Assembly: GCA_963797555.1 (NCBI GenBank)
Contig: CAWCPV010000020.1
Location: 1 to 64,000, forward strand
Direction: 5' to 3'
Source: an uncultured Gammaproteobacteria bacterium
Lineage (GTDB): Bacteria; Pseudomonadota; Gammaproteobacteria; CAWCPV01
Length of the DNA: 64,000 nt
The translations under genes were made by a program, and so were the position numbers. Of this stretch, positions 45,431-63,748 are shown in pieces; the stretch's first letter is position 1; the number at the start of each line of letters is the position of its first letter. The notes under the pieces were generated by a model that searched no databases, was not told the origin of the DNA, and was given only the letters and a program-made list of their open reading frames with translations.

Positions 45431-45555
45431 TGAGCGAATCCGCCCGGCTACGGCGCAGACACAGCACGAATCCCTAGCGGCGTGGGGTGGTCGTCATCCC
45501 TGTTGGCCTCTCAGGCGCATCGGTCGGCTGGCGTCGCTGGCGTTATCGCCGCCGG

Positions 45556-45990: not shown

Positions 45991-46250
45991 GTCCCCTCGT
46001 CCGCCTCGGTCCAGTCGTTAGTGGCGTCCAGCAGGGCACGGTGGCTGGTGGGGTCCGCAACCGCTGCTGTAAGTCCACCGACTCCTGCGAATACCGGGAG
46101 CGGGGGACGGGCACGTTGGAGTTTAGCCGGCGGCCGCAGCCGTAGCGCGAGCGCTTCCTCGATTAGACGGGTCAGGGTCGTGTGCTCCTGCGCGGCCACG
46201 GCCTTGGCCCGGGTCAGCAAGGCATCGTCGATGTCGAGGGTCGTTCTCAT
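45987..46250 (-). CDS. vapB: VapB-type antitoxin
   Basis: MRTTLDIDDALL...TLTRLIEEAL; overlaps the vapC start. Confidence 0.85.
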   Translation of the reverse strand: MRTTLDIDDALLTRAKAVAAQEHTTLTRLIEEALALRLRPPAKLQRARPPLPVFAGVGGLTAAVADPTSHRALLDATNDWTEADEGT

Positions 46251-47028: not shown

Positions 47029-48174
47029 ATGGAAGTGTCTTTTTACCGGCTCACCTGGCACGCCCAGCTCGCGGCTGGCGCCTTGCTGTTCGTGTTGTCG
47101 CTCGCGATCGAGGCCGCCGTGCTTACCGAATACTTGACCAACGCGGTCCTCGCCGCGCCGCTCGCCCTCGGCCTGGAAGTCAGCAAGGCGGTGACCATCG
47201 TGCTCCACCGCTTCCTCACCGGGCAGGACCGGGGCAGCTACCCGGCGTCGGTACGCTCCATCGTTCTCGTTTTTCGAGCGGCCCTGCTGGTGCTGTCCGC
47301 TCTATGCTCGCTGATGTACCTCGCCCACAAGCTCGATCGCCCGCACCTGGAAGCGGTCCGCCAAGCCGACCTGGCGAGTATAGAACACGCCTATACGGCC
47401 GATCGCTCCCGCCTCGAGCGACAGTTCGCGCGCCAAGGGACCGAGACCGACAAGGTGGTCGCCGCCCGTTTCGCACAACTGCGGGAGCAGGCCGCAGACG
47501 GTTACCGGCCCGCCATCCGGGGCCTGCAAGCCCAGCTCACCGTGGAAATGGACAACTCCGTGAAAGGGAACTTCGTCGGCCCTCGCTACCGGACGATCGC
47601 TTCGCGCCTCGAGCAGGAGAAGTCCGCGTACCGGGAGCGCCTGGATGGACTCGCCGAGCGGGAGGCACGGGAGCGCGCCGAGAGCTTGGGCTCGCTCCGC
47701 GACGCGCAGGAGCGGGACCTGTCGCGGCTGCGCAGCGTCTTCGAGGCTCGTGCGGCGCATCTGCGCGGCGAAGATTATGCGGGAGATAGCCGGGTGGAGA
47801 ACCCCATGATCACCGCCTTCACTCGGGTGGTGCATCGGGTCACCGGCCTCGACCTGGACCCCCTGCTGTTCATCTTCCTGTTTTCGGTCTTTATCAGCCT
47901 CCTCATGGAGCTTGGCATCGTGGCGAGCTTCGAGACGCTCACCAGCTCCCACCTGCCGATCCTCTCTGCGGCCCACCGCATGAAGCTCCAGGTCACCAAG
48001 CACCGGATCGAGTCCGAGGGAGACTTGCAGACCGCCCGGATCGACGACGCGGCACAGCGCCAGAGAACGGCAGGATGGGTACGGGACATCGCTCGTTCAG
48101 TCGGCTTCGGCGCGGGCGGCCTCGACCGCAAGCTTGCGGATCCGGCGGAGCCCGGCGGATCTGGTTTCAAATAG
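47029..48174 (+). CDS. Uncharacterised membrane protein (about 3 TM, long coiled coil, 1 TM); DUF4407-like architecture
   Basis: Hydrophobic N-terminal helices, a helical middle with EMDNSVKGNFVGPRYR, and a C-terminal TM; GGAGGAG RBS. Confidence 0.7.
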   Translation: MEVSFYRLTWHAQLAAGALLFVLSLAIEAAVLTEYLTNAVLAAPLALGLEVSKAVTIVLHRFLTGQDRGSYPASVRSIVLVFRAALLVLSALCSLMYLAHKLDRPHLEAVRQADLASIEHAYTADRSRLERQFARQGTETDKVVAARFAQLREQAADGYRPAIRGLQAQLTVEMDNSVKGNFVGPRYRTIASRLEQEKSAYRERLDGLAEREARERAESLGSLRDAQERDLSRLRSVFEARAAHLRGEDYAGDSRVENPMITAFTRVVHRVTGLDLDPLLFIFLFSVFISLLMELGIVASFETLTSSHLPILSAAHRMKLQVTKHRIESEGDLQTARIDDAAQRQRTAGWVRDIARSVGFGAGGLDRKLADPAEPGGSGFK

Positions 48175-48210
48175 ACACGGATCACATCACAACTTGGAGG
48201 GACAGCAGCC

Positions 48211-48756
48211 ATGCCTGAAAACCGCGGGTCGGGAGACTCCCACACCGCCACCTACCACCCGGAGATCCTCCGGGCGCCGGTGGCGGACAACTCGGCGCTG
48301 GTCGACTCGGCGCTCGCCGCGCACCGGCAGAACTTCCTGCTCCGCCTGTTCCCGAACGACCAGGAGCGGGCGGTGCGCGGCCATGAGCTGGACCAGATCA
48401 AGGCCGGCTTCGAGTTCCGCCGCCGTGCCCTGCAGATGGCGGTGGAGACGAAGCTCCAGGCCATGGAGGAGATGTGCAACCACGTCCTGGTCACCGGCAA
48501 GAGCGAGATCCGCCGGCAGCGCCAGGAGTTCTTCGCCGAGCAGCAGCTCAAGCTGCAGACGGCCATGGACCAGCACGCGGAGCGCTTCAACACCCGCCTG
48601 GAGCGGCGTCTGGCGGAGCTTCAGCGTTACCAGAACCCGCAGCTCCGGCAGCGGGAGGAGCAGCGCCTGCTGCGGGCGCTGGATCAGTTCCACGAGATGA
48701 TCGAGCAGCTCTCCCAGGACTTCATGGCCATCATCCATGAAGGCGTCCACCGCTGA
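48211..48756 (+). CDS. Uncharacterised alpha-helical/coiled-coil protein
   Basis: 181 aa, strong host codon bias, GGAGG RBS, 26 bp before cas2. Confidence 0.75.
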   Translation: MPENRGSGDSHTATYHPEILRAPVADNSALVDSALAAHRQNFLLRLFPNDQERAVRGHELDQIKAGFEFRRRALQMAVETKLQAMEEMCNHVLVTGKSEIRRQRQEFFAEQQLKLQTAMDQHAERFNTRLERRLAELQRYQNPQLRQREEQRLLRALDQFHEMIEQLSQDFMAIIHEGVHR

Positions 48757-48782
48757 GGGGCGCGGAGCCCGGAGGACGAAGC

Positions 48783-49067
48783 TTGACCACACAGCCCGCC
48801 ATCATCGCCTACGACATCGCGAGCGACGCCACCCGGCGGCGGGTGCGCCAGGTGGTCCAGGAGTGGCGCCTCGACGGCCAGAAGTCGGTGCACGAGTGCC
48901 TGCTGACGGAGGCCCAGGCGCAGGAGCTGTTCCTGCAGCTCGCCGAGACGTTGTCGGGCACTCGGGACCGGTTGCTGCTCGCCTGGGTGGCGCCTCACCG
49001 GGCGTGCATGGCGCGCGGGAAAGGCCGGATCGGCGGCCCGCCCTTCGGGGCGGCACGGGTGATATGA
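48783..49067 (+). CDS. cas2: CRISPR-associated Cas2 (copy 1)
   Basis: IIAYDIASDATRRRV...QKSVHEC; TTG start with GGAGG RBS. Confidence 0.88.
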   Translation: MTTQPAIIAYDIASDATRRRVRQVVQEWRLDGQKSVHECLLTEAQAQELFLQLAETLSGTRDRLLLAWVAPHRACMARGKGRIGGPPFGAARVI

Positions 49068-49071
49068 GGCG

Positions 49072-49432
49072 ATGGCCAAACGCGGCTGGTATCTGCTCGC
49101 CTACGACATCGCCTGCCCGCGCCGGCTGCAGAGGGTGCAGCGGCTCCTGAAGGGCGAAGGGCTCGCGGCGCAGCTCTCGGTGTTTTTCGTGTTCGGGTCG
49201 CAGGCCGAGGTCTCGGGGCTCCTCGACCGTGTGGCGGAGCGGATCCACGTCCGGGAAGACGATGTCCGCTGCTGGCCGATTCGACCATCCGGGGGCGGTG
49301 TGGTTCCACGGCGAGCCCCCAGTCAAAGGCCCCCTGGCACCGCCGGGCCGCAGACCTCGGCCCGAACAGGCGGAGAGCAAGAAACGGCGCGGCTCGGCGG
49401 TGCTCCGTATCCTGGGGAGGTGGCGGGCTTGA
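49072..49432 (+). CDS. cas2: CRISPR-associated Cas2 (copy 2); read in frame with cas1 in this assembly
   Basis: YLLAYDIACPRRLQRV...QLSVF...EDDVR; a plausible C-terminus (DHPGAVWFHG...) lies in the +1 frame ending at TGA 49432. Confidence 0.8.
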
Positions 49433-50469
49433 CCGGGGAGTTGCTGGTGGTGCTCGACCGTCGGGAAAGCACGGTTCGGCTCGAGGGTCGCGCCTTGCGC
49501 GTCCAGCATGCAGGCGGATGGGAGCGCATCCCCCTGGGGCTGGTGGGCCTGGTGGTGGTCCACGGGAGCCCCTCGGTGTCTTGCGACGTCTGGCGCGCCC
49601 TGGCGGAGCGCGGCGTGCCCGCGGTCATGCTGCCGTCGCGGGGCACCGGCGCGGCCGCCTGGGCCGGTGCCGGGCTGTCCACCAGCATCCAGGTACGGCG
49701 GCGCCAGCACCGGGCGGCCTCGGACCCTCCGCAACGCCTCGCGGTGGCGCGGGAGATTGTGCTGGCCAAGCTGTCTGCCCAGCGAGCCCTCGTACAGGGA
49801 CTGGGTTCCGGCACGATCCCGGTCCTGTTCGACACGGGGGGGACCGCCGCCCTGGTGGCGACGCTGGACAGCCAGTTGGCCGCGGCCCGCACGGCTCCCG
49901 ACCCAACCACCCTCATGGGGGCCGAAGGGGCAGCCGCCTCAGCCTGGTACCAATGGCTCTGCGAACATTTGCCGGGCCGCTGGCGCTTCAGCGGCCGCAA
50001 CCGCCGCCCACCGCGCGACCCGGTCAACGCACTGCTCTCCCTCACCTACACCCTCGCCATGACCGAGGCCCGGTACCAGCTCGAAGCCGCCGGGCTGGAC
50101 CCCGCCTTGGGCTTCCTGCATGGGGTGGTGCCCGGAAGAGACTCCCTGATGCTGGACGTGGTGGAGCCGCTGCGTCCAGGTGTCGACGCTTTCGTGCTGC
50201 GCCTGCTCGAACGGGTGGTCGAGCCGCGGGACTTTCACTACAGCCAGCGGGACGGCTGCCGGCTCAACAAAGCGGCGCGGGGAACGTATTACCAGGCGTG
50301 GGCCGCCTATCGCCTGGAATGGCCGGACCTCGAAGCGCGCGCTGCCGCCGGCAGCGAAGAAGAAGCGCCTGCTTACGCAGGCACGCTCTCCGGTGCCGCC
50401 TGGCGGGTCGTCCAATCCTTGCGGCGTCTCCTGCCCGACTTGGGCGACGAGCCCCAGTCCGATGGGTAA
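49429..50469 (+). CDS. cas1: CRISPR-associated integrase Cas1
   Basis: LMGAEG, FSGRNRRPPRDPVNALLS, GFLHG, LMLDVVEPLRP; TTG start with GGAGG RBS. Confidence 0.93.
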   Translation: MTGELLVVLDRRESTVRLEGRALRVQHAGGWERIPLGLVGLVVVHGSPSVSCDVWRALAERGVPAVMLPSRGTGAAAWAGAGLSTSIQVRRRQHRAASDPPQRLAVAREIVLAKLSAQRALVQGLGSGTIPVLFDTGGTAALVATLDSQLAAARTAPDPTTLMGAEGAAASAWYQWLCEHLPGRWRFSGRNRRPPRDPVNALLSLTYTLAMTEARYQLEAAGLDPALGFLHGVVPGRDSLMLDVVEPLRPGVDAFVLRLLERVVEPRDFHYSQRDGCRLNKAARGTYYQAWAAYRLEWPDLEARAAAGSEEEAPAYAGTLSGAAWRVVQSLRRLLPDLGDEPQSDG

Positions 50470-51296
50470 GCTGCTGGACCGGGCACTGACGCCCGATGCC
50501 GTCAACCGCGCCTGGAAGAGCGTCCGAAACGACCGCGCACCGTGGCATGTCGGGATGAGCAGGACGGAAATGGAACGGAATCTTGCGACCCACCTGCTGC
50601 GCCTGGTCGATGATCTGCGACAGGGCCGGTACCGCCCCGATGCCATGAGGCAATTTACGATCGCCAAGGGAGACGGCCGCCAGCGCGTGCTCTCCGCCCT
50701 CACCCTGCGGGACAAGCTGGCGCAGCGCGCGGTCCTGTCGGTTCTCGAGCCCATCGGCGAACAACTGTTCCACCACGACAGCTTCGGCTACCGGGCCGGG
50801 CGCAACGTCGCCATGGCGCTGGCACGGGTCCGGGAGCGGGTGCACTGCGGTCTTCCCTGGCTGGTGGACGCGGACATTCGGGCGTTCTTCGATAACATCC
50901 CCCACCGCCCGCTGCGCAAGGCGCTGGCGCGTGTCGTCCCGGACCGGGAGGTCCTGCACCTCATCGACCAGTGGCTCGAGGTCGGCACGTACCACACCGG
51001 CATCCTCACCGGCCCCCGGGGGGTCCCCCAGGGGGCTGTCATCTCTCCGTTTCTCTGCAACGTCTACCTGCACCAGCTCGACGGACGGCATGCGCGAAGC
51101 GGCGTACCCTTCGTTCGTTATGCCGACGACTTCCTGCTGTTCGCTCCCGACGAGCGGACGGCCGCCAAGGCCCTGAAGCTCGTCGGCGTATACCTGCGGG
51201 AGTCTCGACCTCGAGCTCCACCCCGAAAAGACCCGGGTAGTGCTCTCCGGACCCCAGGTCAGCTTCCTCGGACAACCGCTGCCTGCGCCGCCGTGA
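50462..51296 (+). CDS. Stand-alone group II intron-like reverse transcriptase (CRISPR-associated); frameshift ~51200
   Basis: IAKGDGRQRVL, DKLAQRA, SFGYR, DADIRAFFDNI, GVPQGAVISP, RYADD; LHPEKT...FLG in the shifted frame; no maturase or endonuclease domain; overlaps the cas1 end. Confidence 0.9.
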
Positions 51297-51316
51297 CATC
51301 GTACGAGCCTAGCTAG

Positions 51317-51663
51317 CCTACCGCCCCCGCGCCATCCTCAAGCGCCGCAGGCGCTCTCTGCCCCCGCGCGCCCCCATCCCTACCCCTGCTCCCCGCGGCA
51401 GATGAAAACGGCCGCTGCGCCCACCACGACCGTGGACAGCGGCCGGGGGTCAGCTACGAAAGGGAGGAGTGACGCAACCCGTGATGGCGAGCAAGCGCCC
51501 ACATATCCCGATCTGCCAAACATCGCCAACATGGTCTACACTACACTTGGTTTCCAACCGAGACCGTACCGACATGCGTGTAGCTAACTCCCTCGAACAG
51601 TTTCCGTGTCGCCGCGGCAACGCCCAACCGCCTGCTGGCCGTGGCTGTCTCGCGGCAGGGGGG
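51317..51663 (+). promoter_or_regulatory. Putative CRISPR leader
   Basis: Non-coding stretch between RT and the first repeat; degenerate repeats are at the opposite end of the array. Confidence 0.6.
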
Positions 51664-53894
51664 GGCAGAACGCAGACCTGATGAAGAAGGGATTGAGACA
51701 AGCCTAAACTTCCGCTTTCACTCCCCACGTCGGCAGAACGCAGACCTGATGAAGAAGGGATTGAGACTTGACAAGAAGAGCTATTGCCGCATTATGCCAG
51801 AGGCAGAACGCAGACCTGATGAAGAAGGGATTGAGACATCGGCTGCCGCGCATATCCAACTTCCCGATCTCGGGCAGAACGCAGACCTGATGAAGAAGGG
51901 ATTGAGACATGGACGCCCTGAACGGCGCCGTCAACTCCACGGGCAGAACGCAGACCTGATGAAGAAGGGATTGAGACCGGAACAGCCCGGGGACGCCCAT
52001 CGGGATCAGGTGGCAGAACGCAGACCTGATGAAGAAGGGATTGAGACCGTAGCGTTGGGTGACATACTGCACGATGTCAGGGGCAGAACGCAGACCTGAT
52101 GAAGAAGGGATTGAGACCCGAGAGCCTGCTCTATCGGACTTACATCCCCCGGCAGAACGCAGACCTGATGAAGAAGGGATTGAGACACTGGGCGCGCATC
52201 CCGGCCTACACGCGGTAATAGGGCAGAACGCAGACCTGATGAAGAAGGGATTGAGACCTCACCTCTTTCGATACTGGTAAGGTCATCGAGGGCAGAACGC
52301 AGACCTGATGAAGAAGGGATTGAGACTTCCGTGATACCCGCAATAGAGCGTCATCGCCAGGCAGAACGCAGACCTGATGAAGAAGGGATTGAGACGCGTA
52401 TAGAACCTACCGAACGAGATGATCTTTCCGGCAGAACGCAGACCTGATGAAGAAGGGATTGAGACATGAGCCGGCGTAGTCAGCTATCTGTAGGGCAGAA
52501 CGCAGACTGATGAGGGATCAGAACGCAGCACCTGATGACGAAGGGAATGCAGACCTGATGAAGAAGGGATTGAGACTTGCCACTGACACTCGCAGGATCG
52601 ACGGGCAGAACGCAGACCTGATGAAGAAGGGATTGAGACGACTTGGAGCGCCGCATATTCCGCCAATGTGAGGGCAGAACGCAGACCTGATGAAGAAGGG
52701 ATTGAGACCGATGCGATCCATCTCCTCAAAGCGCGCCTCGAGGGCAGAACGCAGACCTGATGAAGAAGGGATTGAGACTTCCCGAAGGCGGACGGACCAT
52801 CCTGTGTACGCCGGCAGAACGCAGACCTGATGAAGAAGGGATTGAGACCTCCCGAAAGAGCTACCAGCGCTGTTCGCCTCCGGCAGAACGCAGACCTGAT
52901 GAAGAAGGGATTGAGACAGATACAACCTCGGCGGTGCGTCGATCAGGACTTGGCAGAACGCAGACCTGATGAAGAAGGGATTGAGACCCATACGTGATTG
53001 CCGCTAGTAATAGATCAATGAAGGCAGAACGCAGACCTGATGAAGAAGGGATTGAGACCGCCTAAGGTAGTCCTCTGTGCTCTCCTTTCCCTGGCAGAAC
53101 GCAGACCTGATGAAGAAGGGATTGAGACAACGTCGCGAAAATCGTGAACGCTCCGGTTGGGGGCAGAACGCAGACCTGATGAAGAAGGGATTGAGACTCC
53201 AGTCCTTTGATGTAATCGCATGGTGCTAACAGGCAGAACGCAGACCTGATGAAGAAGGGATTGAGACAATTTGAGCAAGGCAGGGTCAAACCATTATCTT
53301 GCGGCAGAACGCAGACCTGATGAAGAAGGGATTGAGACGCTATTCGAAGTCGCATTTGACCACCTCCTCGAGGGCAGAACGCAGACCTGATGAAGAAGGG
53401 ATTGAGACACGTGGACGCAGAGCGACACAGTCGAATTGCCAGGGCAGAACGCAGACCTGATGAAGAAGGGATTGAGACGCCGTGATTCCAGCTACCGCCG
53501 TCAATTTCTTGTGGCAGAACGCAGACCTGATGAAGAAGGGATTGAGACCACCTGTCCGGCAGGTAACTGCTAAGGCTTATGGGCAGAACGCAGACCTGAT
53601 GAAGAAGGGATTGATACTGGAGAAAGAGCGGCACACCTCACTTCACCAGCGGCAGAACGCAGACCTGATGAAGAAGGGATTGAGACATGTTCCTCCCGCG
53701 TTATCAGTGGATTGGCGTGGCAGAACGCAGACCTGATGAAGAAGGGATTGAGACCTGTAGGGATGTGGTCGTTTGGATAGAGAGCCGTAGGCCGAACGGA
53801 GACCTGATGAACAAGGGATTACGACGGCGACCGGAAGGTCACCGTGGCCATGTCCCTTGGCGGGACGGGGATCTGGTGAAGAAGGAGTTAGGAC
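51664..53894 (+). CRISPR. CRISPR array, 36-bp repeat GGCAGAACGCAGACCTGATGAAGAAGGGATTGAGAC, about 32 repeats and 31 spacers
   Basis: Repeats every ~69-71 bp; spacers mostly 32-35 bp; garbled unit at 52494-52576; variant at 53582; degenerate repeats at 53790 and 53859. Confidence 0.98.
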
Positions 53895-53995
53895 GACATT
53901 TTCGACAGCCGATGCGGTCAGCGCGGCGCTGATGTGCCATGGGGGCGGTGGGTGTTGCGAATATCAACGTCACAACGTGGAAAGGAGAAAGCGCC

Positions 53996-54871
53996 ATGGG
54001 TAAGAGCCGCAAGAAGGCGCGGTCTGGGCCGCCGGCCATCCAGGCCGAGCGTGCCTTCGCCGCTATCAAACAGACATTCGGCTCGAACAAACCGCTGGCC
54101 ATCGGTCTAGCGGCCTTGCTGCTACTGACCTTTGGCTGGTTCGTGAATGCGACTTACGACCTGCCCCTTTTGCTGGATGGAAACACTGCCTTGGGGTTTC
54201 GGCTGCGGGTGGTGGGGGGCCTTTTGGCCTTTCTCCTTGTGTCCGTCTGGCTGGTCTGGATGGCTAGCCGTGCGAACGTGACTGTCCCAGTGATCGTGGT
54301 GCAGACACCCGACCCGCCCAAGGTCGCAGGCCTTATCACGTTTCTGAGCCCGCCCGGCGCCGATAGGGCGCAGATCGAGACCTTTGCGGCCAGCACCGTT
54401 GGCGAAGCAGAGCCACCCGACCCCCGTGCGTCTCTGAAGGGCTCGTGGCGAATGCCCCTTGAGGCCCTGGCCTACCACGCAGAGCGGCTCAAGTACCTGG
54501 TGGTCATCCCCTCCGCCGATGACCCCAGAGACCCGCAGGGCAAACCTGGAACTTGGCGGGACATGGAACTGTTCAAGGCCGTGGTCGCGCGGTATAGCGG
54601 GGGTCGGGTTGCCGCGGAATGCCTACCCGACTGCCACCAGGGTGTGGATTACGAAGATGCCCGCGCCGCAAAGGATGGCGTGGATAGCGCCTATGCGTCG
54701 CTTCTGCAACGCGGACTTAAAACCTGCGATATCCTGGTGGACATCACCGCCGGACAGAAACCCACCACGATTGCCGGCGCCGCAGTGGCGCTCGTGGAAG
54801 ATCGTCAGTTCCAGTACGTCAGCACCCGCGACTACCGCGTAGTGACCTACAACATCACCTATCAGAGCTGA
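53996..54871 (+). CDS. Transmembrane CARF effector (Cam1/Cam2-like)
   Basis: Two N-terminal TM helices and a Rossmann-like domain with GLITFLS and LVDITAGQKPTT (CARF motif II); no nuclease domain. Confidence 0.75.
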   Translation: MGKSRKKARSGPPAIQAERAFAAIKQTFGSNKPLAIGLAALLLLTFGWFVNATYDLPLLLDGNTALGFRLRVVGGLLAFLLVSVWLVWMASRANVTVPVIVVQTPDPPKVAGLITFLSPPGADRAQIETFAASTVGEAEPPDPRASLKGSWRMPLEALAYHAERLKYLVVIPSADDPRDPQGKPGTWRDMELFKAVVARYSGGRVAAECLPDCHQGVDYEDARAAKDGVDSAYASLLQRGLKTCDILVDITAGQKPTTIAGAAVALVEDRQFQYVSTRDYRVVTYNITYQS

Positions 54872-54873
54872 CC

Positions 54874-55197
54874 ATGGGCACCATTTATGTCATCAACTCC
54901 CCCGTCCTCACCGACTACGGGTTCTGGCGCTTCCGTGGCCCATTATCCGTGGACGAGGCCCGCGACATGCTTGCGGGCGGTTTCGTGTCCGCCATCGGCC
55001 ATGAATCGGCGGCCCAGTTCCTGTCCCGACGCCTCGGGGTGACCGTCCCGCACAACCGGGTGCGCGTGAGCATGGCGCCGGGTGACCGAGCGCTGGTGCT
55101 GCGGCTGGGCGCCCGTCTGCCCGAAGGGCGGCAACTGACCGATGAGGACATGGAGCAACTTCCGTTCGAGCTGGGGCTGATGGAGCGGGAGGGATAG
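54874..55197 (+). CDS. crn2: DUF1874 / AcrIII-1-like ring nuclease (Crn2)
   Basis: YVINS...FVSAIGHESAA...NR...GDRALVLRL..RLPEG, the STIV B116/YddF family signature. Confidence 0.85.
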   Translation: MGTIYVINSPVLTDYGFWRFRGPLSVDEARDMLAGGFVSAIGHESAAQFLSRRLGVTVPHNRVRVSMAPGDRALVLRLGARLPEGRQLTDEDMEQLPFELGLMEREG

Positions 55198-55738: not shown

Positions 55739-55799
55739 CGGTAATCCGGGGTTCTAGCCCGTGTTACACTGTCTTACGCTATACGGAGCGGAGGATTCC

Positions 55800-56658: not shown

Positions 56659-57768
56659 TTACAGCTTTTTGTCGAGTCGGTCGAGAACAAATATCTCGCC
56701 CTCAAAGTGGCCGAACAGCCGCTTCGCGTCTTGGTCGGCCCAGGCATCGCATTCGTGGGTGCTGTCATCCACCGGATTCTTGAGGATCTTGAAATCGAGG
56801 CTGCTCAAAGCGATCTGCTGATTCGATTCCAGGTACCGAGCCAGTTGATCTACACGCTCATTCACCAAGCGCAGCCGCTCCCCCGCGAGGGTGCGGATGC
56901 TGCGTTCAAAGCCGGAGCCGAAGCGTAGCCGGCGCGAGGGTGAGTCCCAAAGGCGTTCCTCGTAGATCCGTGGGCAGGCTTCCCGCCAGACGATCTCACC
57001 CCAGGCTGAAAGAGTAGCCTGTCCCCCGTCGACGAACAGCAGGGTATCCGGGATTCCAGCCACTTCCGCCGCCGCCACCGCAAGCTGTGCCCCCATCCGG
57101 CGGAAGGCGGCAAGATGGGCCCGCACGGTCGCCTCTGCATCGAGCTTGAGCGGGAGACGCGGCAAGCGCAGCAGCTCGTGACCCGATTCGAAGACATATA
57201 CGCTCTCGTCCGCATAAAGCATCGCGAGGGCCTGCATGAACCCTTGTACGCTCTTGAACCCACCGGTGAGGTTGAAGACTACACGGTAGCCTTGCCGCGA
57301 ATACTTCCGAAGGGTTCCGGCACACCAGGTGGCAAGTTCGGTCATGGCAGCCTGGAAACCAGGCAGCTCCTCTGTCTGCAAGTCCTTGACCCGGTAAACT
57401 TCTGCTCCCAAGCCGGCCTGCTGCAGTATGTCTGCGATTATCCGTGCGCCATTCTCTCCTAACCAGGTATCTGTACAGAGCAGCACATGGTGATCGGGCG
57501 CACGGGCAGGGAACCTTCCGTGATACCAGCGCAGCAGGCCATTCAGCTCGGCGCTCAGGGCCATCAATATCGCGGGTTCCCTCCGATCGACAAGTTCCTC
57601 GCGCCGTTTCTGGATGTGCGGCTCGATTAACTCTCGTACCTCGGTTGGGATCTGTTCCGCGGAAACTGCATTTGCATACTTGGTAAGTAGCTTTCGCAAC
57701 TCATCCTGAACCTGATTGGTAAACAGGCTGGTCCCGCAGGTGGAAACGATGAGGTGTCGCTGCGCCAT
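56659..57768 (-). CDS. cami1: CARF(APE2256)-wHTH-RelE effector, Cami1-like mRNA interferase
   Basis: STCGTSL, SAELN, FNLTGGFKS, YVFE CARF motifs; RelE-like C-terminus (LDFKILK...THECDAWAD..AKRLFGHFE). Confidence 0.82.
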   Translation of the reverse strand: MAQRHLIVSTCGTSLFTNQVQDELRKLLTKYANAVSAEQIPTEVRELIEPHIQKRREELVDRREPAILMALSAELNGLLRWYHGRFPARAPDHHVLLCTDTWLGENGARIIADILQQAGLGAEVYRVKDLQTEELPGFQAAMTELATWCAGTLRKYSRQGYRVVFNLTGGFKSVQGFMQALAMLYADESVYVFESGHELLRLPRLPLKLDAEATVRAHLAAFRRMGAQLAVAAAEVAGIPDTLLFVDGGQATLSAWGEIVWREACPRIYEERLWDSPSRRLRFGSGFERSIRTLAGERLRLVNERVDQLARYLESNQQIALSSLDFKILKNPVDDSTHECDAWADQDAKRLFGHFEGEIFVLDRLDKKL

Positions 57769-57819
57769 ATTCCTCTCCGAACTGGTCAAAAGCATCGCGG
57801 ACCGGAGTGCGAGCTGATG

Positions 57820-58153: not shown

Positions 58154-60265
58154 CTAACCGCCTTTGGGATCGATCTTGATGATTTTCCAGTTGGGTCCGC
58201 CCCGGTGCTCCACGGTGATGTCCGCCCTGAGCCTGCCCTGCTGCAAACGCTTAAGTGCAGCGGGGTCCAGGGAAGCTAGGAGCGAATCAGCCTCAGCGCC
58301 CATCACAAAGGCACGTTCCTTTTCTTTAGAGGCGGAAATCTCCCTCTTTCCTTTGTTGAAGACCAGAGGCACGCCTAGCCAACGGTCAGTGCCCCCGGGT
58401 GATGAAGTTTTCAGACCTGAAGCACCACGCTGAGGATATGCTGCCAACACGAGTCGGTCCTTCTTCGCTTTCACGAAGTCGTTGCGACCATCCTCCTGAG
58501 CAAGAACCATGTGTCGCAGATCGCCCCGGAATGCCCGCGCACTCGCTGCATCAGCCATTCCTCGAAGGGCCCTCATTTGAGGGCTCTTTGCCCACCCCTG
58601 CACCTGTTTTTCCATAAAGCTCACGAATTTTTCCATACAGTTGCTGAGGCTGAGAGGCGTAGTAATTGGATCATTACTGACGACGTGGCTCGACTCGATC
58701 TGAACGCTCGCTTGCCCATATCCATATGGTTTGCCCATTCCGATTGAATGATGCATCGCTTCGTCACCACCCCAGGTAAGCGCCCAAATTAATGCTCCTA
58801 ATTCTTCGGGCTTAAGATTATGAAACACAACTCTGCCGGAGAATTGAGCACCCCCGTCGATCGGAAATAGGTTTACCGAAACTGCATCGGTTCCTTCTGA
58901 GGAGTGCGTCAATGCAGGTCGCACAGGATAGCGCTTCCAGCCCCGTATCTCGGAATCTTTGTCCATATAAGTCTTATAGGTGTCCCGAGCGAGCGTCGTA
59001 CCGTCCACGGTCGGTTGTGCGACATAATTCGGGTAATAGGTCGGCTTCGGCGAATTCAGCACTACCCTTCGTGCATCCAATTCCAGGACTCCCGCCCTCT
59101 CAGTGCAGGGTTCGAACCATACCCGTCCCTTTAGTGGCGTAAGGCCATCTACCACATCGGTCATACCGAACATTAGGCAAGCGAAATCATCGGGACGCTT
59201 CTCGGCGTGGGATGAAGATGTGTGTTTGATGGTCTCTACGATCGAGTGCGGATATGCAAGCTTGAACATAAGCGCCAAGCCTAGAGAAGCGATCGTCCCC
59301 CCGAGGTCGGTCAAGAAGAATATTGGTATGCGGGCACGGCTTTTCCAGTAGGCCCACTCGTCGGTTTCCGCGTGGATGTGCATAAAGTCCCGCATCACCG
59401 CCTCAGGCACTTCAACCTGTCGGGTCGTGGGCACATCGTAAAACACGAACTCCAGATGCTTCTTGCCCGCCGCAGGCGGGACGCGGGCCGCAGGTTGGCC
59501 GGTGAAAACGAGCATACCCTCGACTGCACCTCTCCCCACGTCGGCCGCCTTACTGTATACCAGCATCTTGCCGCCGCTGTGCGGGTGGGCTTCCTGTAGG
59601 CCAGGAGTGAACCGGATGTCGAGGGAACGGGGCCGCCATCGACTATATTTTTCACGGGCACAGACACGGGGCACTGCACGCCACCAGCGATCCCCGGAGA
59701 GTACAGCGAGTTCATCGTGATCGATACGGGAGTAAGCACAAGGTGTGACAAACCACCGATCACCTTGGAAGCTCAGCCAGCCTGCCTGCGAAAGAGGTCG
59801 GTACATGTTCTCGCCGACTTTCTCGGTCATGAATCTCCCATAGAAGCCACGCGCCGGATTGGTCAGGTCGCGCACCGAGTAGCGTGCATCATCCACCATC
59901 CCCATCCTTGAGAAAGTGATAATCTCCAGCACGTTCCGGACCATGCCCTTTAGGCTCGATCCGGGGATGGCGTAGCCGTCCGGCGTCTGGAAAAACCGCA
60001 CCTCGCCGGGTGCCTGTTGGCTCGCCTTGGTCTGCTGTCCACCGACCAGGATCGGGGTGTGCGCGGTAAGGGTGAAGGCGATCTCGCCGCTCAAGCCGTC
60101 CTTGAACGGGACGTCGTGAGAAACGAGGTGTGCCCAATCGGGGACTACAACCTGCTCCGAAAGAGGGACGAAGTTGTAAGGGGAGTTAATCGCCTGCATC
60201 GCTGGCTCTTGGGGCCGATTAGCGCCCGGTGGGCGAGGGTTGTTCCGGTGGTGCTGTCTGGGCAT
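58154..60265 (-). CDS. Type III-D Cas7 with large insertion (TIGR03986-like RAMP)
   Basis: SPYNFVPL, SHD...LSGEI, IPGSSLKGMVR, LNSPKPTY, RGWKRY, IGMGKPYGYG. Confidence 0.88.
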   Translation of the reverse strand: MPRQHHRNNPRPPGANRPQEPAMQAINSPYNFVPLSEQVVVPDWAHLVSHDVPFKDGLSGEIAFTLTAHTPILVGGQQTKASQQAPGEVRFFQTPDGYAIPGSSLKGMVRNVLEIITFSRMGMVDDARYSVRDLTNPARGFYGRFMTEKVGENMYRPLSQAGWLSFQGDRWFVTPCAYSRIDHDELAVLSGDRWWRAVPRVCAREKYSRWRPRSLDIRFTPGLQEAHPHSGGKMLVYSKAADVGRGAVEGMLVFTGQPAARVPPAAGKKHLEFVFYDVPTTRQVEVPEAVMRDFMHIHAETDEWAYWKSRARIPIFFLTDLGGTIASLGLALMFKLAYPHSIVETIKHTSSSHAEKRPDDFACLMFGMTDVVDGLTPLKGRVWFEPCTERAGVLELDARRVVLNSPKPTYYPNYVAQPTVDGTTLARDTYKTYMDKDSEIRGWKRYPVRPALTHSSEGTDAVSVNLFPIDGGAQFSGRVVFHNLKPEELGALIWALTWGGDEAMHHSIGMGKPYGYGQASVQIESSHVVSNDPITTPLSLSNCMEKFVSFMEKQVQGWAKSPQMRALRGMADAASARAFRGDLRHMVLAQEDGRNDFVKAKKDRLVLAAYPQRGASGLKTSSPGGTDRWLGVPLVFNKGKREISASKEKERAFVMGAEADSLLASLDPAALKRLQQGRLRADITVEHRGGPNWKIIKIDPKGG

Positions 60266-60276
60266 GACCGTTCTCC

Positions 60277-60765
60277 TCATTCTTCTCCGAAGCCTATGAA
60301 GCAAGCGGCAAAGGGCTCCGCGCCGCGCTCCCGGTCGATCCGCCAATAGCGGCGGTAGCGCAGGCGATTCAGTTCGTCATCAATGGCGATCAGGGCCACC
60401 GTGTCGCAGAGGTATTGATATTCACCCCCTGCCGCCGGGGTATATCGGGTGGCGATCCAATTGCCCGTGCCGCCGTAACGGATGTGCAGGGATTCGCCTG
60501 CCGCATTGACGGCCTCAGCGGCTAGCATCATGCCGGTCGTGTGGTCCATCGCAGGGGGAGTCTCGGTGAAGGTCCGGTTAGCCGACTGAAAGCCGGCCCA
60601 GCCCTCCTTCGGCCCGAAAGCCACAAGCCGCGCGAGCGCATCCTCAGCGGAAGCCAGGCGCTCGGGCTTGGCCTCAAGCGAGGTGGTGTTGGGATGGATG
60701 GACGGCAGGCGGCTCTTGCCTCTGCGCACCCGATTGTAAAGATCAAGTAGTGTGGTCGCATCCAT
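60277..60765 (-). CDS. csx19: Type III-D subunit Csx19
   Basis: Lies between RAMP genes; C-terminal LRYRRYW...FIGF. Confidence 0.75.
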   Translation of the reverse strand: MDATTLLDLYNRVRRGKSRLPSIHPNTTSLEAKPERLASAEDALARLVAFGPKEGWAGFQSANRTFTETPPAMDHTTGMMLAAEAVNAAGESLHIRYGGTGNWIATRYTPAAGGEYQYLCDTVALIAIDDELNRLRYRRYWRIDRERGAEPFAACFIGFGEE

Positions 60766-62225
60766 TACGCGGCCTCCAGCCTTGCCTTGCCTTCGATCCA
60801 GGCGCCCTGGTCCGACCATTGGATTTCGCCATCGAAAAACCCATGTCCTTTGCCTGCGCCACCTCCCAGGGCGAGCCGCCCGACGCACAGATCTTGGAGA
60901 GCACACCGTAGTGCCTTGCGCGCTGTATCCGGGGCGCCGCCCGTATCGATGGTGACTTGAAGCTCAATGCCCTTGCCCCAAACCAGTTCCTCCATGAACA
61001 GCATGTGTTCCCGCACCCCGCCGGTGAACCGATCGATAGCGTTGTGCATCATGAGCTGGAGGTCTTCCTTCCGGAACGCTACGAAGGTGTCGTCGATGAA
61101 GACCCGGCCGGCTCGGCCTCTCTCGTCTTCTCGCGCGTGTTCCTTGCCGTCGCGGGCATAGCCGAAGAGCGCCCGCACTTCTGGACAGCGATCCGACTTG
61201 TCGTAGCTGACGAGGTCTTCCATCTCGTTTGCCCAGCGCCCGGCCAGGCGATTGGCGTGGAAGGCCACCCGGTGTGCGATCGCTCCCTTGACCGAGGAGG
61301 CGGGGATCAGCAGTTGGGCGGCAATCGGCTCGGCTTTATTGTCGTTCCAGATCACCCGCTGCTCCAACTTGGGCAGCAGGTCTGCCGGCTTGCCCTCGCT
61401 GTCCCTTCTAGTGGGCGTATCGCCCTGGCCGATGCGCCAGAAGGCTCGGGGTTTCAATTTGAGTGTGGCGATCACGAAGCGAGTGACGGTATCCGTGCCT
61501 GCTCGGCCGGGGTTCACCTCGCTCAACCCCGTGGTATTGTCAAGCCTGCGCGACTGGGCGGCAAAGCGGCGCCGTCCCTCTGCTGTTCGGAGGTTGAACT
61601 GACCTGAGTGCACCCGAACGACCCTTAGCCGACCGAGTCCGGCCCGAACCGCACCACCCAGGCGAAACACGGGATGGGCCAGCAGGTCCAGCAACTGGTT
61701 CCAACGTAGATCGTCCGCCCGGTCGCTCCACAGAGACAGCTCAGTGCTGAAGCGGTAGCCGGCCGGCAACACGGCTCGGTCGAACTTGCCGGTGTCGGTC
61801 GCCGCGCCCCGGTGGCCGATGCGCACCCGGTCACGATGGACAGGCGCAGCTTCCGCCTCGTAGGCAGCGCGCAGTAGGGCATCGGTTTCCAACCGCTCAC
61901 GGTCCCGCCCGGGCAGCAAGCCCTCCACAGGGCGTCCCTGGCTGTCCTGGATGGCTCCCCAGGACACATGCAGCCGCGACGGCTCGCCTTCGTCCTTCTC
62001 CTGAAAACCGAACAGCGCTTGCATTGACGCCTTATCGTGCAGGTCCCAAAAAAGATGCCGCAACACCCCGGCAAGCGCGGAACCCGGCAGGGCTGGAAAG
62101 CCGTTGGCGTCCCGCACCAGAATCACATCGAACACCCCGTCTGCGCCGCCCGCAGCGATGGACAGGGGCGTGGCCGCTTCGAGGGTTATGCGTGCCAGGT
62201 AGTAGTGGGGAACGTTGGGGGTCAT
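60765..62225 (-). CDS. Type III-D double Cas7 (Csm3-Csm3) fusion
   Basis: Two RAMP modules: TPLSI..LPGSALAGVLR..GGAVRAGLG, and IPASSVKGAI..NAIDRFTGG..GGGAGKGHG. Confidence 0.88.
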   Translation of the reverse strand: MTPNVPHYYLARITLEAATPLSIAAGGADGVFDVILVRDANGFPALPGSALAGVLRHLFWDLHDKASMQALFGFQEKDEGEPSRLHVSWGAIQDSQGRPVEGLLPGRDRERLETDALLRAAYEAEAAPVHRDRVRIGHRGAATDTGKFDRAVLPAGYRFSTELSLWSDRADDLRWNQLLDLLAHPVFRLGGAVRAGLGRLRVVRVHSGQFNLRTAEGRRRFAAQSRRLDNTTGLSEVNPGRAGTDTVTRFVIATLKLKPRAFWRIGQGDTPTRRDSEGKPADLLPKLEQRVIWNDNKAEPIAAQLLIPASSVKGAIAHRVAFHANRLAGRWANEMEDLVSYDKSDRCPEVRALFGYARDGKEHAREDERGRAGRVFIDDTFVAFRKEDLQLMMHNAIDRFTGGVREHMLFMEELVWGKGIELQVTIDTGGAPDTARKALRCALQDLCVGRLALGGGAGKGHGFFDGEIQWSDQGAWIEGKARLEAA

Positions 62226-63748
62226 CGGCGGGTCTCCTGTTTAATGACGGCCATCACCTCGCGCGCCAGCAGTTGAACGAAACGGGGGTCCGGCTCGGTG
62301 CCGAGGACCTCACGCAGCCAAGCGGCGAAGCTGCGGGTGGGATGATTTCGGTCGTCCCAGTGCTCGTCACTCCAGCCGGGCGCGGAGGGCTTGCAGACGC
62401 CGTTGTTCTCGTCGAATAGTTTCCGGGCCAAGTCTCCGCGCGCGGCCTTGGCCTCTGCCAGTGCGCTGCCCCACTGACTCGCCGAGGGACCGATCTCCGC
62501 CCTGTCCGCTAGACCCTTGAGACGGCGGGCTGAGCCGAGCAGTGCTCGGTATTCGTGGGCGAGCTCGCGCGCACGGGTAGCGCTATCTTGGCGGACCGAC
62601 TGACTCTTCCATCGTTCCTCCAACCACTCGACGAGCGGGCTGACCGGACGTTGTGGCTTTGCAGGTTCTGCGGCAGCCTTCGCCGGTGTGGCGAAGTGTG
62701 GCTGCTCGGTCGCCAGCAATGGCGAGTCAAGCGAAACCTGTCCCAGACCTGCCTCCCGGTGGGCGCCGAGTCCGGCGGCAATGCGTGCTCGCTCCATCTC
62801 GTTGAGTGAGCGTTCGAGCTGAAAAACTAGGACGCTGCCTTGGGCGAGCACCTGGCGTTCCAGATCCGGCCCGCCTCGGTGAGCATTCCAAGGGGAGTAG
62901 CGGCGCACCCGCACGAAGCTCTTATTCGCCAGCAGATCGCCCCGTGGCAGGCCCAGCGACTCTGGTCGCGGCGTCAGGGTGGGCTGACCGAAGTCGTCCA
63001 GGGCGGCCAAGTCAGAGAGCAGCCACATGATTGTCTCCTTCATCTTGGCCCCATCTCCGAGTGGGAGAGGAAGGTCCAGTGCCGCTCCAGGATCAGCCAC
63101 GATTTCTCGGATCTCGACACCGGCACGGCCGTACTCGGCACTCCGGGAGCGGCCTAGAAGGACCTCTTGCATCAGTACCTCTCCAAGCTTGTCAAGCAGC
63201 CCGTCGGAAACGTCAGCATCGGCGGTAACCCGTGAGGCGAAACGCTGCCCCGCCGAGAGGGAGTCGTAGCCGAACAGGGCCGCCTCACGGGCCCTGCCGG
63301 TCGTCGGGTCAATGGCGGTCTTGAGGCGCAACGCCTGGGTGGGCACGCATAGCTCTCCGCCAGCCGTGACATAGCCTCGCCGCAATTGCTGTGGTTGGTG
63401 CCCGTGAGGAAGTTCGTCCAGCAGCCCCAGGTGCCAGATGCGCTCGCCGACGAGCCGGCCACCTTCCTCTGCGCGCTCACCCTTGATATGGTGCCAGCAG
63501 AACGGCACGGGCCAGGCGCGTTCACCGTCCTCGGCGATAGGCAGGCCGTTGCCGAAACGGACCCTGCCGGAGTGAAACAGCAGAAAGGCATCCACAGTCG
63601 GGAGCGTGCGGTAGAGCTGTGCCGCGGCAGCGCCGAGGATGGCGCCTCCCGGAATGTAATCGAGTCCGCGATGCCCCCCCTCAGTGGCGGCCCGCTCACT
63701 GAAGACGCAGTCGTCCTTCAAGGTCAGGAACAGGTCGAAACCCTTCAC
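62222..63748 (-). CDS. csx10: Csx10 (Cas7-Cas5) with C-terminal Cas11-like helical extension
   Basis: LDYIPGGAILG, TAIDPTTGRA, LGRSRSAEYG, GLGAHREAGLG; C-terminal PSASQWG helical domain. Confidence 0.82.
   Translation of the reverse strand: MKGFDLFLTLKDDCVFSERAATEGGHRGLDYIPGGAILGAAAAQLYRTLPTVDAFLLFHSGRVRFGNGLPIAEDGERAWPVPFCWHHIKGERAEEGGRLVGERIWHLGLLDELPHGHQPQQLRRGYVTAGGELCVPTQALRLKTAIDPTTGRAREAALFGYDSLSAGQRFASRVTADADVSDGLLDKLGEVLMQEVLLGRSRSAEYGRAGVEIREIVADPGAALDLPLPLGDGAKMKETIMWLLSDLAALDDFGQPTLTPRPESLGLPRGDLLANKSFVRVRRYSPWNAHRGGPDLERQVLAQGSVLVFQLERSLNEMERARIAAGLGAHREAGLGQVSLDSPLLATEQPHFATPAKAAAEPAKPQRPVSPLVEWLEERWKSQSVRQDSATRARELAHEYRALLGSARRLKGLADRAEIGPSASQWGSALAEAKAARGDLARKLFDENNGVCKPSAPGWSDEHWDDRNHPTRSFAAWLREVLGTEPDPRFVQLLAREVMAVIKQETRR

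What the first reader, a model, noticed from the sequence alone, without database searches (positions are those of the whole stretch)
50462..51296. Minimal stand-alone RT downstream of cas1, not fused to Cas1 or Cas6
Seen: about 278 aa, YADD intact, ends just after RT motif 7 with no thumb/maturase domain; start overlaps the cas1 3' end. Known: the best-characterised CRISPR RTs are RT-Cas1 or Cas6-RT-Cas1 fusions; separate RTs are described mainly bioinformatically. Inference: it must associate with Cas1-Cas2 in trans, possibly via one of the two Cas2s.
Basis: partly seen in the sequence, partly recalled or inferred. Interest (0 to 1): 0.7.

Follow-up and report, generated by a model that had tools for sequence, protein, structure and literature searches.

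The report
Stand-alone CRISPR reverse transcriptase gene
A short reverse transcriptase gene sits beside cas1 and two cas2 genes in a conserved CRISPR spacer-acquisition operon; this class has been described but not tested at the bench, and its apparent frameshift is probably an assembly error.

Summary
An RT gene starts at 50462, overlapping the cas1 stop by 8 nt. It keeps YADD and ends a few residues after motif 7. As assembled it needs one base skipped near 51203; read that way it is 277 aa and 93% identical, without gaps, to an unbroken 277-aa homologue.

It belongs to a large family of about 280-aa RTs with fingers and palm only. In 52 of 74 related loci Cas1, Cas2a and Cas2b lie beside the RT. 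On trees the family is one well-supported clade among RT-Cas1 fusions and apart from group II intron RTs. No intron RNA flanks the gene. This fits the published unfused CRISPR-RT clade 13, which often carries two Cas2 genes, so it is a new member of a known kind.

The cas2-cas1 "fusion" is a second +1 frameshift. About 10% of conserved genes in this genome are split the same way, so assembly error is the likelier cause (about 0.75-0.8).

Added here: five loci fuse Cas2a and Cas2b, and two uncharacterised genes often precede the module. Association of the RT in trans remains inferred; the complex prediction gave no verdict.

The parts
47029..48174 (+). u381: uncharacterised 381-aa protein, hydrophobic at both ends with a coiled-coil middle; often the first gene of the operon
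   Evidence: No Pfam, NCBIfam or PADLOC family. tblastn finds it in 20 of 80 fetched loci, upstream on the same strand as the module. It is present in 15 of 33 loci that have all four genes and at least 2.6 kb upstream. Alignment A8. The Atlas gives only 'hypothetical' clusters, with DUF4407 at 0.80 as a lead only.
48211..48756 (+). u181: uncharacterised 181-aa all-helical protein directly upstream of cas2a
   Evidence: Found in 24 of 80 loci and in 19 of the 33 loci with enough upstream DNA. In those 19 its match ends 0-555 nt before the module's first gene, within 171 nt in 17 of them. Alignment A7 has 10 invariant columns. The model shows long helices (pLDDT 78, pTM 0.44). There is no PDB match by sequence or by fold.
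48783..49067 (+). cas2a (94 aa, TTG start)
   Evidence: Pfam CRISPR_Cas2 E 9.8e-9. It aligns full length with 36 orthologues (A3).
49072..49432 (+). cas2b, broken as assembled. The N-part is 49072-49281. The C-part is 49283-49429 in the +1 frame, with stop TGA 49430-49432.
   Evidence: Pfam Cas2 at residues 6-71 of the 49072 frame. The three-frame comparison with relatives and alignment A4 place the two pieces on the N and C halves of about 110-130-aa orthologues.
49429..50469 (+). cas1 (about 346 aa; the likely TTG start overlaps the cas2b stop)
   Evidence: Pfam Cas_Cas1 E 2.2e-67. The start was inferred from relatives. The one-ORF 'Cas2-Cas1' of 465 aa is seen only in the window and in 0 of 53 relatives.
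50462..51296 (+). Stand-alone RT, 277 aa when one extra base near 51203 is skipped. Codons 1-247 are 50462-51202, codons 248-277 are 51204-51293, and the stop is 51294-51296.
   Evidence: PADLOC model 'RT' (263 positions) is matched end to end, E 7.2e-91.
51297..51663 (+). Putative leader between the RT stop and the first repeat
   Evidence: Position only. Inferred from the degenerate repeats at the far end of the array.
51664..53826 (+). CRISPR array: about 30 repeats of 36-37 nt, 28 regular spacers of 32-35 nt, the last repeats degenerate
53939..54871 (+). Membrane-associated CARF protein (CARF_TM / Csx1-like)
   Evidence: PADLOC CARF8--CARF_TM E 2.3e-36. No Pfam or NCBIfam hit.
54874..55197 (+). 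STIV_B116-like (DUF1874) protein. The reading as a Crn2/AcrIII-1-type ring nuclease is recalled, not tested.
   Evidence: Pfam PF08960 E 2.5e-25.
56659..57795 (-). CARF-domain protein (Cas_APE2256)
   Evidence: Pfam E 4.2e-32; TIGR02619.
58154..63748 (-). Type III effector genes: TIGR03986 RAMP (58154-60346), weak Csx19-like (60277-60906), double Cas7 (60765-62225), weak Csx10-like (62222-63748). Cmr4-like and Cas10-like genes follow beyond the window.
   Evidence: Only TIGR03986 passes its cut-off (305.9 bits against 161), so the subtype is not settled.

Best explanation
This is the reverse-transcriptase subunit of a type III CRISPR adaptation operon: (u381-u181-)cas2a-cas2b-cas1-RT, followed by a leader and the array. 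The protein has about 277 residues and consists of group-II-intron-like fingers and palm (RT0-7, YADD) with no thumb/X domain and no fused Cas1 or Cas6. It belongs to a widespread family of unfused CRISPR RTs that matches the published description of 'clade 13'.

Inferred mechanism: the RT is translated together with Cas1, since the two genes overlap, and joins a Cas1-Cas2a/Cas2b integrase in trans. There it would copy RNA protospacers into DNA, or finish RNA-derived integration intermediates, so that spacers can come from transcripts, as shown for fused RT-Cas1 proteins.

Shown here: the gene's anatomy, the conservation of the operon, the tree placement and the fold. Inferred: RT activity, binding to the integrase, and acquisition of spacers from RNA.

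The +1 frameshifts in the RT (about 51203) and in cas2b (about 49282) are most likely insertion errors of the assembly.
For: Family: 118 of the 120 best of 2054 hits are 270-319 aa. Of 74 family loci, 69 carry an uninterrupted RT of 269-343 aa.

Context: of the 74 loci, Cas1 is present in 62, Cas2a in 57, Cas2b in 57 and all three in 52. None is present in the 6 longer outgroup loci. Arrays are adjacent in many loci. Cas1 and RT overlap in 31 of 38 RT-last loci.

Phylogeny: the family is one side of a branch with SH-aLRT 99 in both trees. In the 202-row tree it lies inside a 97-supported clade with RT-Cas1 fusions, within a 96-supported group that excludes 23 of the 24 group II rows. The next-best profile hits are RT-Cas1 fusions: 7 of 10 tested, plus one partial.

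No intron RNA was found at E<=1 in 44000-58000. The fold is fingers plus palm only. A PADLOC CRISPR 'RT' model is matched end to end.

Heterodimer hint: Cas2a and Cas2b are fused in one ORF with two Cas2 domains in 5 of 5 loci of one subclade.

Literature: both Cas2A and Cas2B are required with the V. vulnificus RT-Cas1, and two Cas2 genes are 'frequently observed in clade 13' (PMC6821258, passages). Clades 9 and 13 are unfused (PMC6013744, section 6). RT-Cas1 RT domains lack a thumb (PMC8102632 and bioRxiv 10.1101/2023.09.01.555893, passages).

Artefact reading: there are 15 frameshift-like splits in 12 of 116 conserved genes over 133,209 aligned nt. mfd and a dnaE-like gene are split, and csm6 in the same locus is split. 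13 of 17 background events are of the same '+1' type. Completeness is 84.6% for only 20 contigs. A 90%-alike contig from another metagenome lacks one base at 51204.
Against: No read or contig identical to the window covers 51203 or 49282, so the frameshifts were not checked directly.

Two shifts in about 2.5 kb exceed the background rate of about 0.11 per kb: 0.28 are expected, and the Poisson probability of two or more is about 0.03 (my arithmetic). Clustering is seen elsewhere, though, with three shifts in one gene.

The closest relative at 97% identity (P0004) is itself frameshifted, at another site. That could mean decay in this lineage.

No unfused CRISPR RT has been tested in the papers listed by my searches, so activity and mode of action rest on fused relatives.

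The 28 spacers match nothing in the organism's own genome or in the phage collection, so there is no clue to RNA or DNA targets.

Clade 13 membership was not tested against reference sequences, because supplements are closed.
Confidence: 0.7

Rival explanations
1. The locus is decaying. The frameshifts in the RT, cas2b and csm6 are real mutations, so the RT and the adaptation module are inactive in this organism, although the family is functional elsewhere.
For: There are three frameshifts within about 19 kb of one CRISPR locus. Two of them fall in a 2.5-kb module where 0.28 are expected. The 97%-identical P0004 is also frameshifted. The genome holds other arrays with cas1-like DNA nearby that could replace this module.
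Against: The genome-wide rate of such splits in conserved genes, mfd among them, is far above what a free-living bacterium should tolerate: 12 of 116 genes. The locus rate of 3 per 19 kb is close to the genome rate. The events are of the same '+1' type as 13 of 17 background events. Outside the shift the RT is 93% identical to an intact homologue, with no stops and no other damage. The array is long and regular.
Confidence: 0.2
2. The RT serves the CRISPR locus, or the cell, in some way other than RNA spacer capture. It might prime or fill gaps during DNA spacer integration, or act as a defence RT that merely shares the operon.
For: Cas6-RT-Cas1 favours DNA substrates in vitro and copies DNA templates (PMC8102632, passages). 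No RNA-phage or other target was found for the spacers. Two unknown conserved genes, one of them a membrane protein, share the operon.
Against: The gene overlaps cas1 in 31 of 38 RT-last loci, and it keeps the module after its two separate moves to the front of it. The nearest relatives are RT-Cas1 fusions, for which RT-dependent RNA spacer acquisition has been shown (PMC6821258 passages; PMC8632793 passages). Defence-RT models (DRT, retron) score far lower than the CRISPR RT model.
Confidence: 0.08
3. It is the remnant of a mobile group II intron that landed beside cas1, or a gene read by programmed +1 frameshifting.
For: The best NCBIfam and PDB sequence matches are group II intron RTs. A second family member, P0121, is shifted at the same alignment column.
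Against: There is no GIIM/X domain and the score is below the family cut-off. No intron RNA is found. The family forms a clade apart from group II RTs. 69 of 74 relatives, and the closest homologue, read straight through the site, so frameshifting is not a family trait. P0121 was found by a search that selects for late shifts reading into the next gene.
Confidence: 0.02

Closest known systems
Unfused CRISPR-associated RTs, 'clade 13' of Toro et al. 2018 (= branch 7 of Silas et al. 2017)
   Same: A group-II-like RT without intron RNA, not fused to Cas1, in type III loci, often with two different Cas2 genes. Sources: PMC6013744 section 6 read; PMC6821258 passage read. All of these features were seen here.
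   Different: Membership was not tested against the clade's reference sequences, because the figures and supplementary tables could not be seen. The papers' text as I read it does not mention the two upstream genes, the tandem Cas2a-Cas2b fusions or the Cas1-then-RT gene order.
Vibrio vulnificus YJ016 RT-Cas1 + Cas2A + Cas2B (clade 6, type III-D), PMC6821258
   Same: Two distinct Cas2 proteins, both required there. YADD RT. Type III locus with csx16, csx19 and CARF genes; here there are weak Csx16, Csx19 and Csx10-like hits.
   Different: There the RT is fused N-terminally to Cas1 and the order is RT-Cas1, Cas2A, Cas2B. Here the RT is a separate 277-aa protein encoded after cas1. The RT-Cas1 fusions I could fetch are only 34-43% identical to P0002, the window RT's 93%-identical homologue. 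None was confirmed to be the Vibrio protein.
Thiomicrospira Cas6-RT-Cas1-Cas2 complex (PDB 7kft/7kfu), PMC8102632
   Same: The RT has fingers and palm and lacks the thumb/X subdomain. The family profile matches chain residues 355-595 at E 1.8e-46.
   Different: That RT is covalently held between Cas6 and Cas1, which contact it. Here any such contacts would have to form between separate chains, and no cas6 was identified in the part of the locus I annotated.
Group II intron RTs (GsI-IIC RT 6ar1; Roseburia/Eubacterium RT domains 5hhj/5hhl)
   Same: Best fold and sequence matches: TMq 0.86, 32-34% identity, E about 1e-52. The match starts at about residue 3 of both proteins, so the N-terminal part is shared.
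   Different: No thumb/X or D domain, no intron RNA, and a separate clade.

Membership tests
Unfused CRISPR-associated RT (Toro clade 13 / Silas branch 7) | [quoted passage not shown] | tested here: met
   RVT_1 E 3.5e-33. TIGR04416 is the best NCBIfam hit. YADD at 220-223. A, D and D are invariant in 34 of 34 orthologues.
Unfused CRISPR-associated RT (Toro clade 13 / Silas branch 7) | No group II intron RNA around the gene | tested here: met
   Rfam at E<=1 over 44000-58000 gave only two weak, unrelated hits.
Unfused CRISPR-associated RT (Toro clade 13 / Silas branch 7) | A separate gene adjacent to cas1 in a type III CRISPR locus | tested here: met
   Cas1 lies beside the RT in 62 of 74 family loci. 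The nearest fused forms are only 34-43% identical.
Unfused CRISPR-associated RT (Toro clade 13 / Silas branch 7) | Two different Cas2 genes (stated as frequent in clade 13, PMC6821258) | tested here: met
   cas2a and cas2b in the window. In the related loci Cas2a and Cas2b were each found in 57 of 74.
Unfused CRISPR-associated RT (Toro clade 13 / Silas branch 7) | Clusters with the clade's reference sequences on an RT tree | not testable with these tools
   The reference lists are in figures and supplements that are closed. Only the wider placement among RT-Cas1 fusions, apart from group II RTs, was shown (quick tree, SH-aLRT only).
Mobile group II intron RT/maturase | Maturase (X/GIIM) domain after RT motif 7, and a score above the family cut-off | tested here: not met
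   No PF08388. TIGR04416 scores 247.8 bits against a 300 cut-off and is matched only over profile positions 2-265 of 353.
Mobile group II intron RT/maturase | Encoded inside intron RNA (domains I-VI) | tested here: not met
RT-Cas1 fusion proteins | RT and Cas1 domains in one polypeptide | tested here: not met
   The RT starts at its own ATG after cas1 and ends 5 residues after RVT_1. The gene order Cas1 then RT is the reverse of the fusion order.
Retron / defence RTs (DRT, Abi) | Score above the cut-off of a retron or DRT model | tested here: not met
   The best such hits score 58.9 bits (Drt2, cut-off 390) and 53.7 bits (retron St85, cut-off 235).

The most novel reading that the evidence does not exclude
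The unfused RT may not dock on Cas1. It may instead be recruited through an obligate, asymmetric Cas2a/Cas2b heterodimer, which one subclade even encodes as a single tandem-Cas2 chain. The two conserved upstream proteins (membrane-anchored u381 and helical u181) may then be further subunits of a six-gene RNA-spacer acquisition machine, perhaps tethering it to the membrane. That would be an adaptation complex built differently from the RT-Cas1 fusions.
Probability: 0.15. Interest if true: 0.6.

Novelty: new member of a known kind. Interest (0 to 1): 0.3.

Why it matters
All bench work on CRISPR reverse transcriptases that I could find concerns fused RT-Cas1 or Cas6-RT-Cas1 proteins. A natural version split into separate small proteins (RT, Cas1, Cas2a, Cas2b) would let each contact and activity be studied apart, and it is a compact candidate for RNA-recording tools.

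For this window the practical message is more modest. The gene is an ordinary member of a described clade. The 'Cas2-Cas1 fusion' and the broken RT are most likely artefacts of an error-prone assembly.

Tried and rejected
Reads. No run listed as a holder is on record as RNA. The best DNA holder (X1) has contigs identical to the window only at 50123-50273, 50525-50733 and 50951-51178, so neither frameshift site could be checked.

Metagenome scan with P0002. It returned only 33-51% relatives, mostly group-II-like, and not the 93% relative's contig.

Relatives of the genome. All 40 are only 'same class', so no close genome was available for a DNA-level check.

GC3 frame plot of the window. Too noisy at 64% GC.

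GANTC motif at frameshift sites. It occurs at 6 of 19 sites against 1.9 expected, but the idea came from the two sites in question. Without them the count is 4 of 17, so I treat it as weak.

Complex prediction with Cas1, Cas2a, Cas2b and RT of locus L012, RT as the partner: no verdict. The scores were 0.33, 0.39 and 0.32. With the partner replaced the controls scored 0.00 and 0.00. With Cas1 replaced the control scored 0.47. It counts neither for nor against binding.

u181: no PDB relative by sequence or by fold. The weak ZorA-tail hit in PADLOC (E 2.6e-4) is taken as coiled-coil noise. The Atlas gave only hypothetical clusters. The idea that u181 is a thumb supplied in trans has no support.

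Spacers: no match in the organism's own genome or in the phage collection.

Literature. One search for 'stand-alone RT' and similar phrases returned only unrelated papers. 'RT-Cas1' together with 'unfused' gave 0 papers. Searching 'tandem Cas2', 'Cas2-Cas2' and 'heterodimeric Cas2' gave nothing relevant beyond PMC6821258. Toro et al. 2019 (RNA Biology, 'Multiple origins...') is recalled only and was not seen.
Full report
WHAT IS THERE

The window (G000 contig C20, bases 1-64000) carries a type III CRISPR-Cas locus. On the + strand lie:
- cas2a (48783-49067);
- a 465-aa ORF with a Cas2 domain followed by a Cas1 domain (49072-50469);
- an RT gene whose ATG at 50462 overlaps the cas1 stop by 8 nt;
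- 367 nt of spacer-free sequence;
- a CRISPR array of about 30 repeats (51664-53826).

Downstream and on the other strand are a membrane CARF protein, a DUF1874 protein, a second CARF protein and type III RAMP genes. Cmr4-like, Cas10-like and Csm6 genes lie just beyond the window. Only the TIGR03986 RAMP passes its curated cut-off. The Csx10-, Csx19- and Csx16-like hits are weak, so I call the system type III with III-D-like hints.

THE RT GENE

The frame of 50462 stays open to 51316 (284 aa). After residue 247, however, its translation loses all similarity to relatives. The conserved motif 6 and 7 sequence appears in the +1 frame and ends at TGA 51294-51296. Reading one four-letter step at codon 247 gives a 277-aa protein. 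It is 258 of 277 identical, without gaps, to the unbroken 277-aa P0002 and ends on the same residues.

YADD is intact. RVT_1 ends 5 residues before the C-terminus of P0002. The group II RT/maturase model is matched only over positions 2-265 of 353 and stays below its cut-off. The AlphaFold model of P0002 (pLDDT 91.1) superposes over 271 columns on the fingers and palm of group II intron RTs, leaving their thumb and D domains unmatched.

IS THE FRAMESHIFT REAL?

I could not see reads over the site. The only contigs identical to the window stop at 51178. A 90%-alike contig from another metagenome lacks one base at 51204, so that relative is in frame. I therefore asked how common such breaks are in this assembly.

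The 'Cas2-Cas1 fusion' is itself a +1 frameshift. The N-part of cas2b is in the frame of 49072. Its conserved C-part is in the next frame and stops at a TGA that overlaps a TTG start of cas1. Cas2b and Cas1 share one ORF in 0 of 53 related loci. The csm6 gene of the same locus is split too.

Genome-wide, mfd and a second dnaE-like gene are split, while dnaE, uvrA, carB, polA and valS are whole. rpoB and rpoC were not found.

I ran tblastn with 543 ORFs taken from 400 kb of a complete genome of the same class against the whole assembly. It found 116 orthologous genes (133,209 aligned nt) with 15 frameshift-like splits in 12 of them. Of the 17 background events, 13 are of the same '+1' kind as those in the RT and cas2b.

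A free-living bacterium with a tenth of its conserved genes broken is implausible. An assembly of 20 contigs that is only 84.6% complete fits an indel-prone assembly.

Against this, two events in 2.5 kb are more than the 0.28 expected, and the 97%-identical fragment P0004 is frameshifted at another site. I put the artefact reading at about 0.75-0.8. I ran no control of the census on a high-quality genome. The events are adjacent HSPs in different frames with contiguous query coordinates, and they cannot arise without an indel.

THE FAMILY AND ITS CONTEXT

Proteins of this size are the rule: 118 of the 120 best database hits are 270-319 aa. I analysed the best 80.

Seventy-four of the 80 belong to the short family. 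They come from Chromatiales, Thiotrichales, Competibacteraceae, Methylococcaceae, Desulfobacterota and others. Sixty-nine of the 74 carry an uninterrupted RT of 269-343 aa. Using the window's proteins as tblastn queries, Cas1 lies in the locus in 62 of 74, Cas2a in 57, Cas2b in 57 and all three in 52. Eight have none, several of them on short contigs. The six longer outgroup RTs (385-427 aa where complete, 36-40% identity) have none.

The usual order is cas2a-cas2b-cas1-RT. Two separate subclades have RT-cas2a-cas2b-cas1. In 31 of 38 RT-last loci the RT start overlaps the cas1 end, most often by 8 or 4 nt. Many loci end in, or are followed by, a CRISPR array.

PLACEMENT

In an 80-row tree the family is one side of a branch with SH-aLRT 99, apart from 24 group II intron RTs and 7 RT-Cas1 fusions.

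A profile search of 1.84 billion representatives gave 5,291 hits at E<=1e-30. About the first 25-30 representatives are short family members. The next hits are mostly 630-780-aa proteins. Of ten of these that I checked, seven are RVT_1 plus Cas1, one is a partial RT-Cas1, one is RVT_1 plus Cas4, and one is a double RT with GIIM.

In a 202-row tree the family is a 58-row clade (SH-aLRT 99). It lies inside a 69-row clade (97) that also holds RT-Cas1 fusions, and inside a 167-row group (96) that excludes 23 of the 24 group II rows. These are quick LG+G4 trees with SH-aLRT only, and the outgroup was not one clean side of a branch, so deeper relations are open.

Rfam finds no intron RNA. A 263-position CRISPR 'RT' model in PADLOC is matched end to end at E 7.2e-91.

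COMPARISON WITH THE LITERATURE

Toro et al. 2017 (PMC5541045, parts 1-2 of the text read) list unfused RTs in a few clades. Toro et al. 2018 (PMC6013744, section 6 read) define clade 13 (Silas branch 7), with clade 9, as the RTs not fused to Cas1.

Gonzalez-Delgado et al. 2019 (PMC6821258, passages read) show that the V. vulnificus RT-Cas1 needs both Cas2A and Cas2B. They state that two different Cas2 proteins are characteristic of clade 6 and frequent in clade 13.

Wang et al. 2021 (PMC8102632, passages) and Mohr et al. 2023 (bioRxiv 10.1101/2023.09.01.555893, passage) state that RT-Cas1 RT domains lack the thumb.

The window's gene therefore fits a described class, and thumblessness is the norm for CRISPR RTs. 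I could not test clade membership against reference sequences. My searches listed no bench work on an unfused CRISPR RT.

HOW IT MOST LIKELY WORKS

What is shown is a conserved, apparently translationally coupled operon of a fingers-palm RT with Cas1 and two Cas2 paralogues next to the leader end of an array.

The rest is inferred. The RT would join a Cas1-Cas2a/Cas2b integrase as a separate subunit and supply cDNA synthesis for RNA-derived spacers, as in the fused enzymes.

The two Cas2 proteins probably form a heterodimer. In one subclade they are a single ORF with two Cas2 domains (5 of 5 loci), and both are required in the Vibrio system. Which subunit holds the RT is unknown; the single complex prediction gave no verdict.

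NEW SIDE OBSERVATIONS

Two genes without any family assignment precede cas2a on the same strand. One is a 381-aa protein with hydrophobic ends and a coiled-coil middle (47029-48174). The other is a 181-aa helical protein (48211-48756). They recur in 20 and 24 of the 80 loci. Among the 33 loci with all four genes and at least 2.6 kb upstream, they recur in 15 and 19, mostly directly in front of the module. Their role is unknown.

VERDICT

The finding is real but ordinary. It is a new member of a known, bioinformatically described kind, in an assembly whose indel errors create the broken RT and the false Cas2-Cas1 fusion. Interest 0.3.

Noticed in passing
window 49072-50469: The 465-aa 'Cas2-Cas1 fusion' ORF comes from a +1 frameshift in cas2b near 49282. 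In 0 of 53 related loci do Cas2b and Cas1 share an ORF.
   Followed up: yes
window 47029-48756: Two conserved genes of no known family, u381 (membrane plus coiled coil) and u181 (long helices), lie directly upstream of cas2a. They recur in 20 and 24 of the 80 related loci.
   Followed up: partly
L065:1149-1799, L066:2616-3254, L073:2855-3571, L074:1185-1730, L082:8857-9480: Single ORFs with two Cas2 domains (Cas2a-Cas2b tandem fusions) occur in the RT-first subclade. My literature searches did not find such fusions in print.
   Followed up: partly
G000:C20:66221-67608 (L199:3221-4608, minus strand): The csm6-like gene is split into two frames at about C20:66890. This is a third frameshift in the same CRISPR locus.
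   Followed up: partly
G000 whole genome: There are 15 frameshift-like splits in 12 of 116 conserved genes. mfd (C3, about 510800) and a dnaE-like gene (C14:280016) are also split. 13 of these 17 are of the '+1' type. GANTC lies at 6 of 19 sites against 1.9 expected (post hoc, weak).
   Followed up: partly
window 51199-51219: Without the T at 51203 this stretch would be a perfect 9-nt inverted repeat separated by two bases. The extra base sits as a bulge in it.
   Followed up: no
P0121 and P0004 (database proteins): Two other family members are frameshifted. P0121 (60% identical) is shifted at the same alignment column as the window and reads on into the next gene. P0004 (97% identical) is shifted in a G/C homopolymer stretch near residue 183.
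   Followed up: partly
P0267 (database protein, 628 aa): An RT of this wider group is fused to a Cas4 / PD-(D/E)XK nuclease domain instead of Cas1.
   Followed up: no
G000: C2:233202-234550, C17:1585-3033, C4:239385-244673, C9:241458-244762, C7:418054-418354: The genome has five further CRISPR arrays. Those on C2 and C17 have repeats that share the 3' half of the window's repeat. One spacer seen in run X1 lies in the C17 array.
   Followed up: partly
window 52466-52603: The array has an irregular unit: a 139-nt interval that holds a truncated, degenerate repeat copy (52515-52577).
   Followed up: no
window 53939-55197: A membrane-associated CARF protein (PADLOC CARF_TM, E 2.3e-36) is followed by a DUF1874 / STIV B116-like protein right after the array. 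The reading of the latter as a ring nuclease is recalled only.
   Followed up: no
L019 (cas1), L034 and L079 (RT): Internal stops or interruptions occur in module genes of other MAGs. Broken copies are therefore not confined to this assembly.
   Followed up: no
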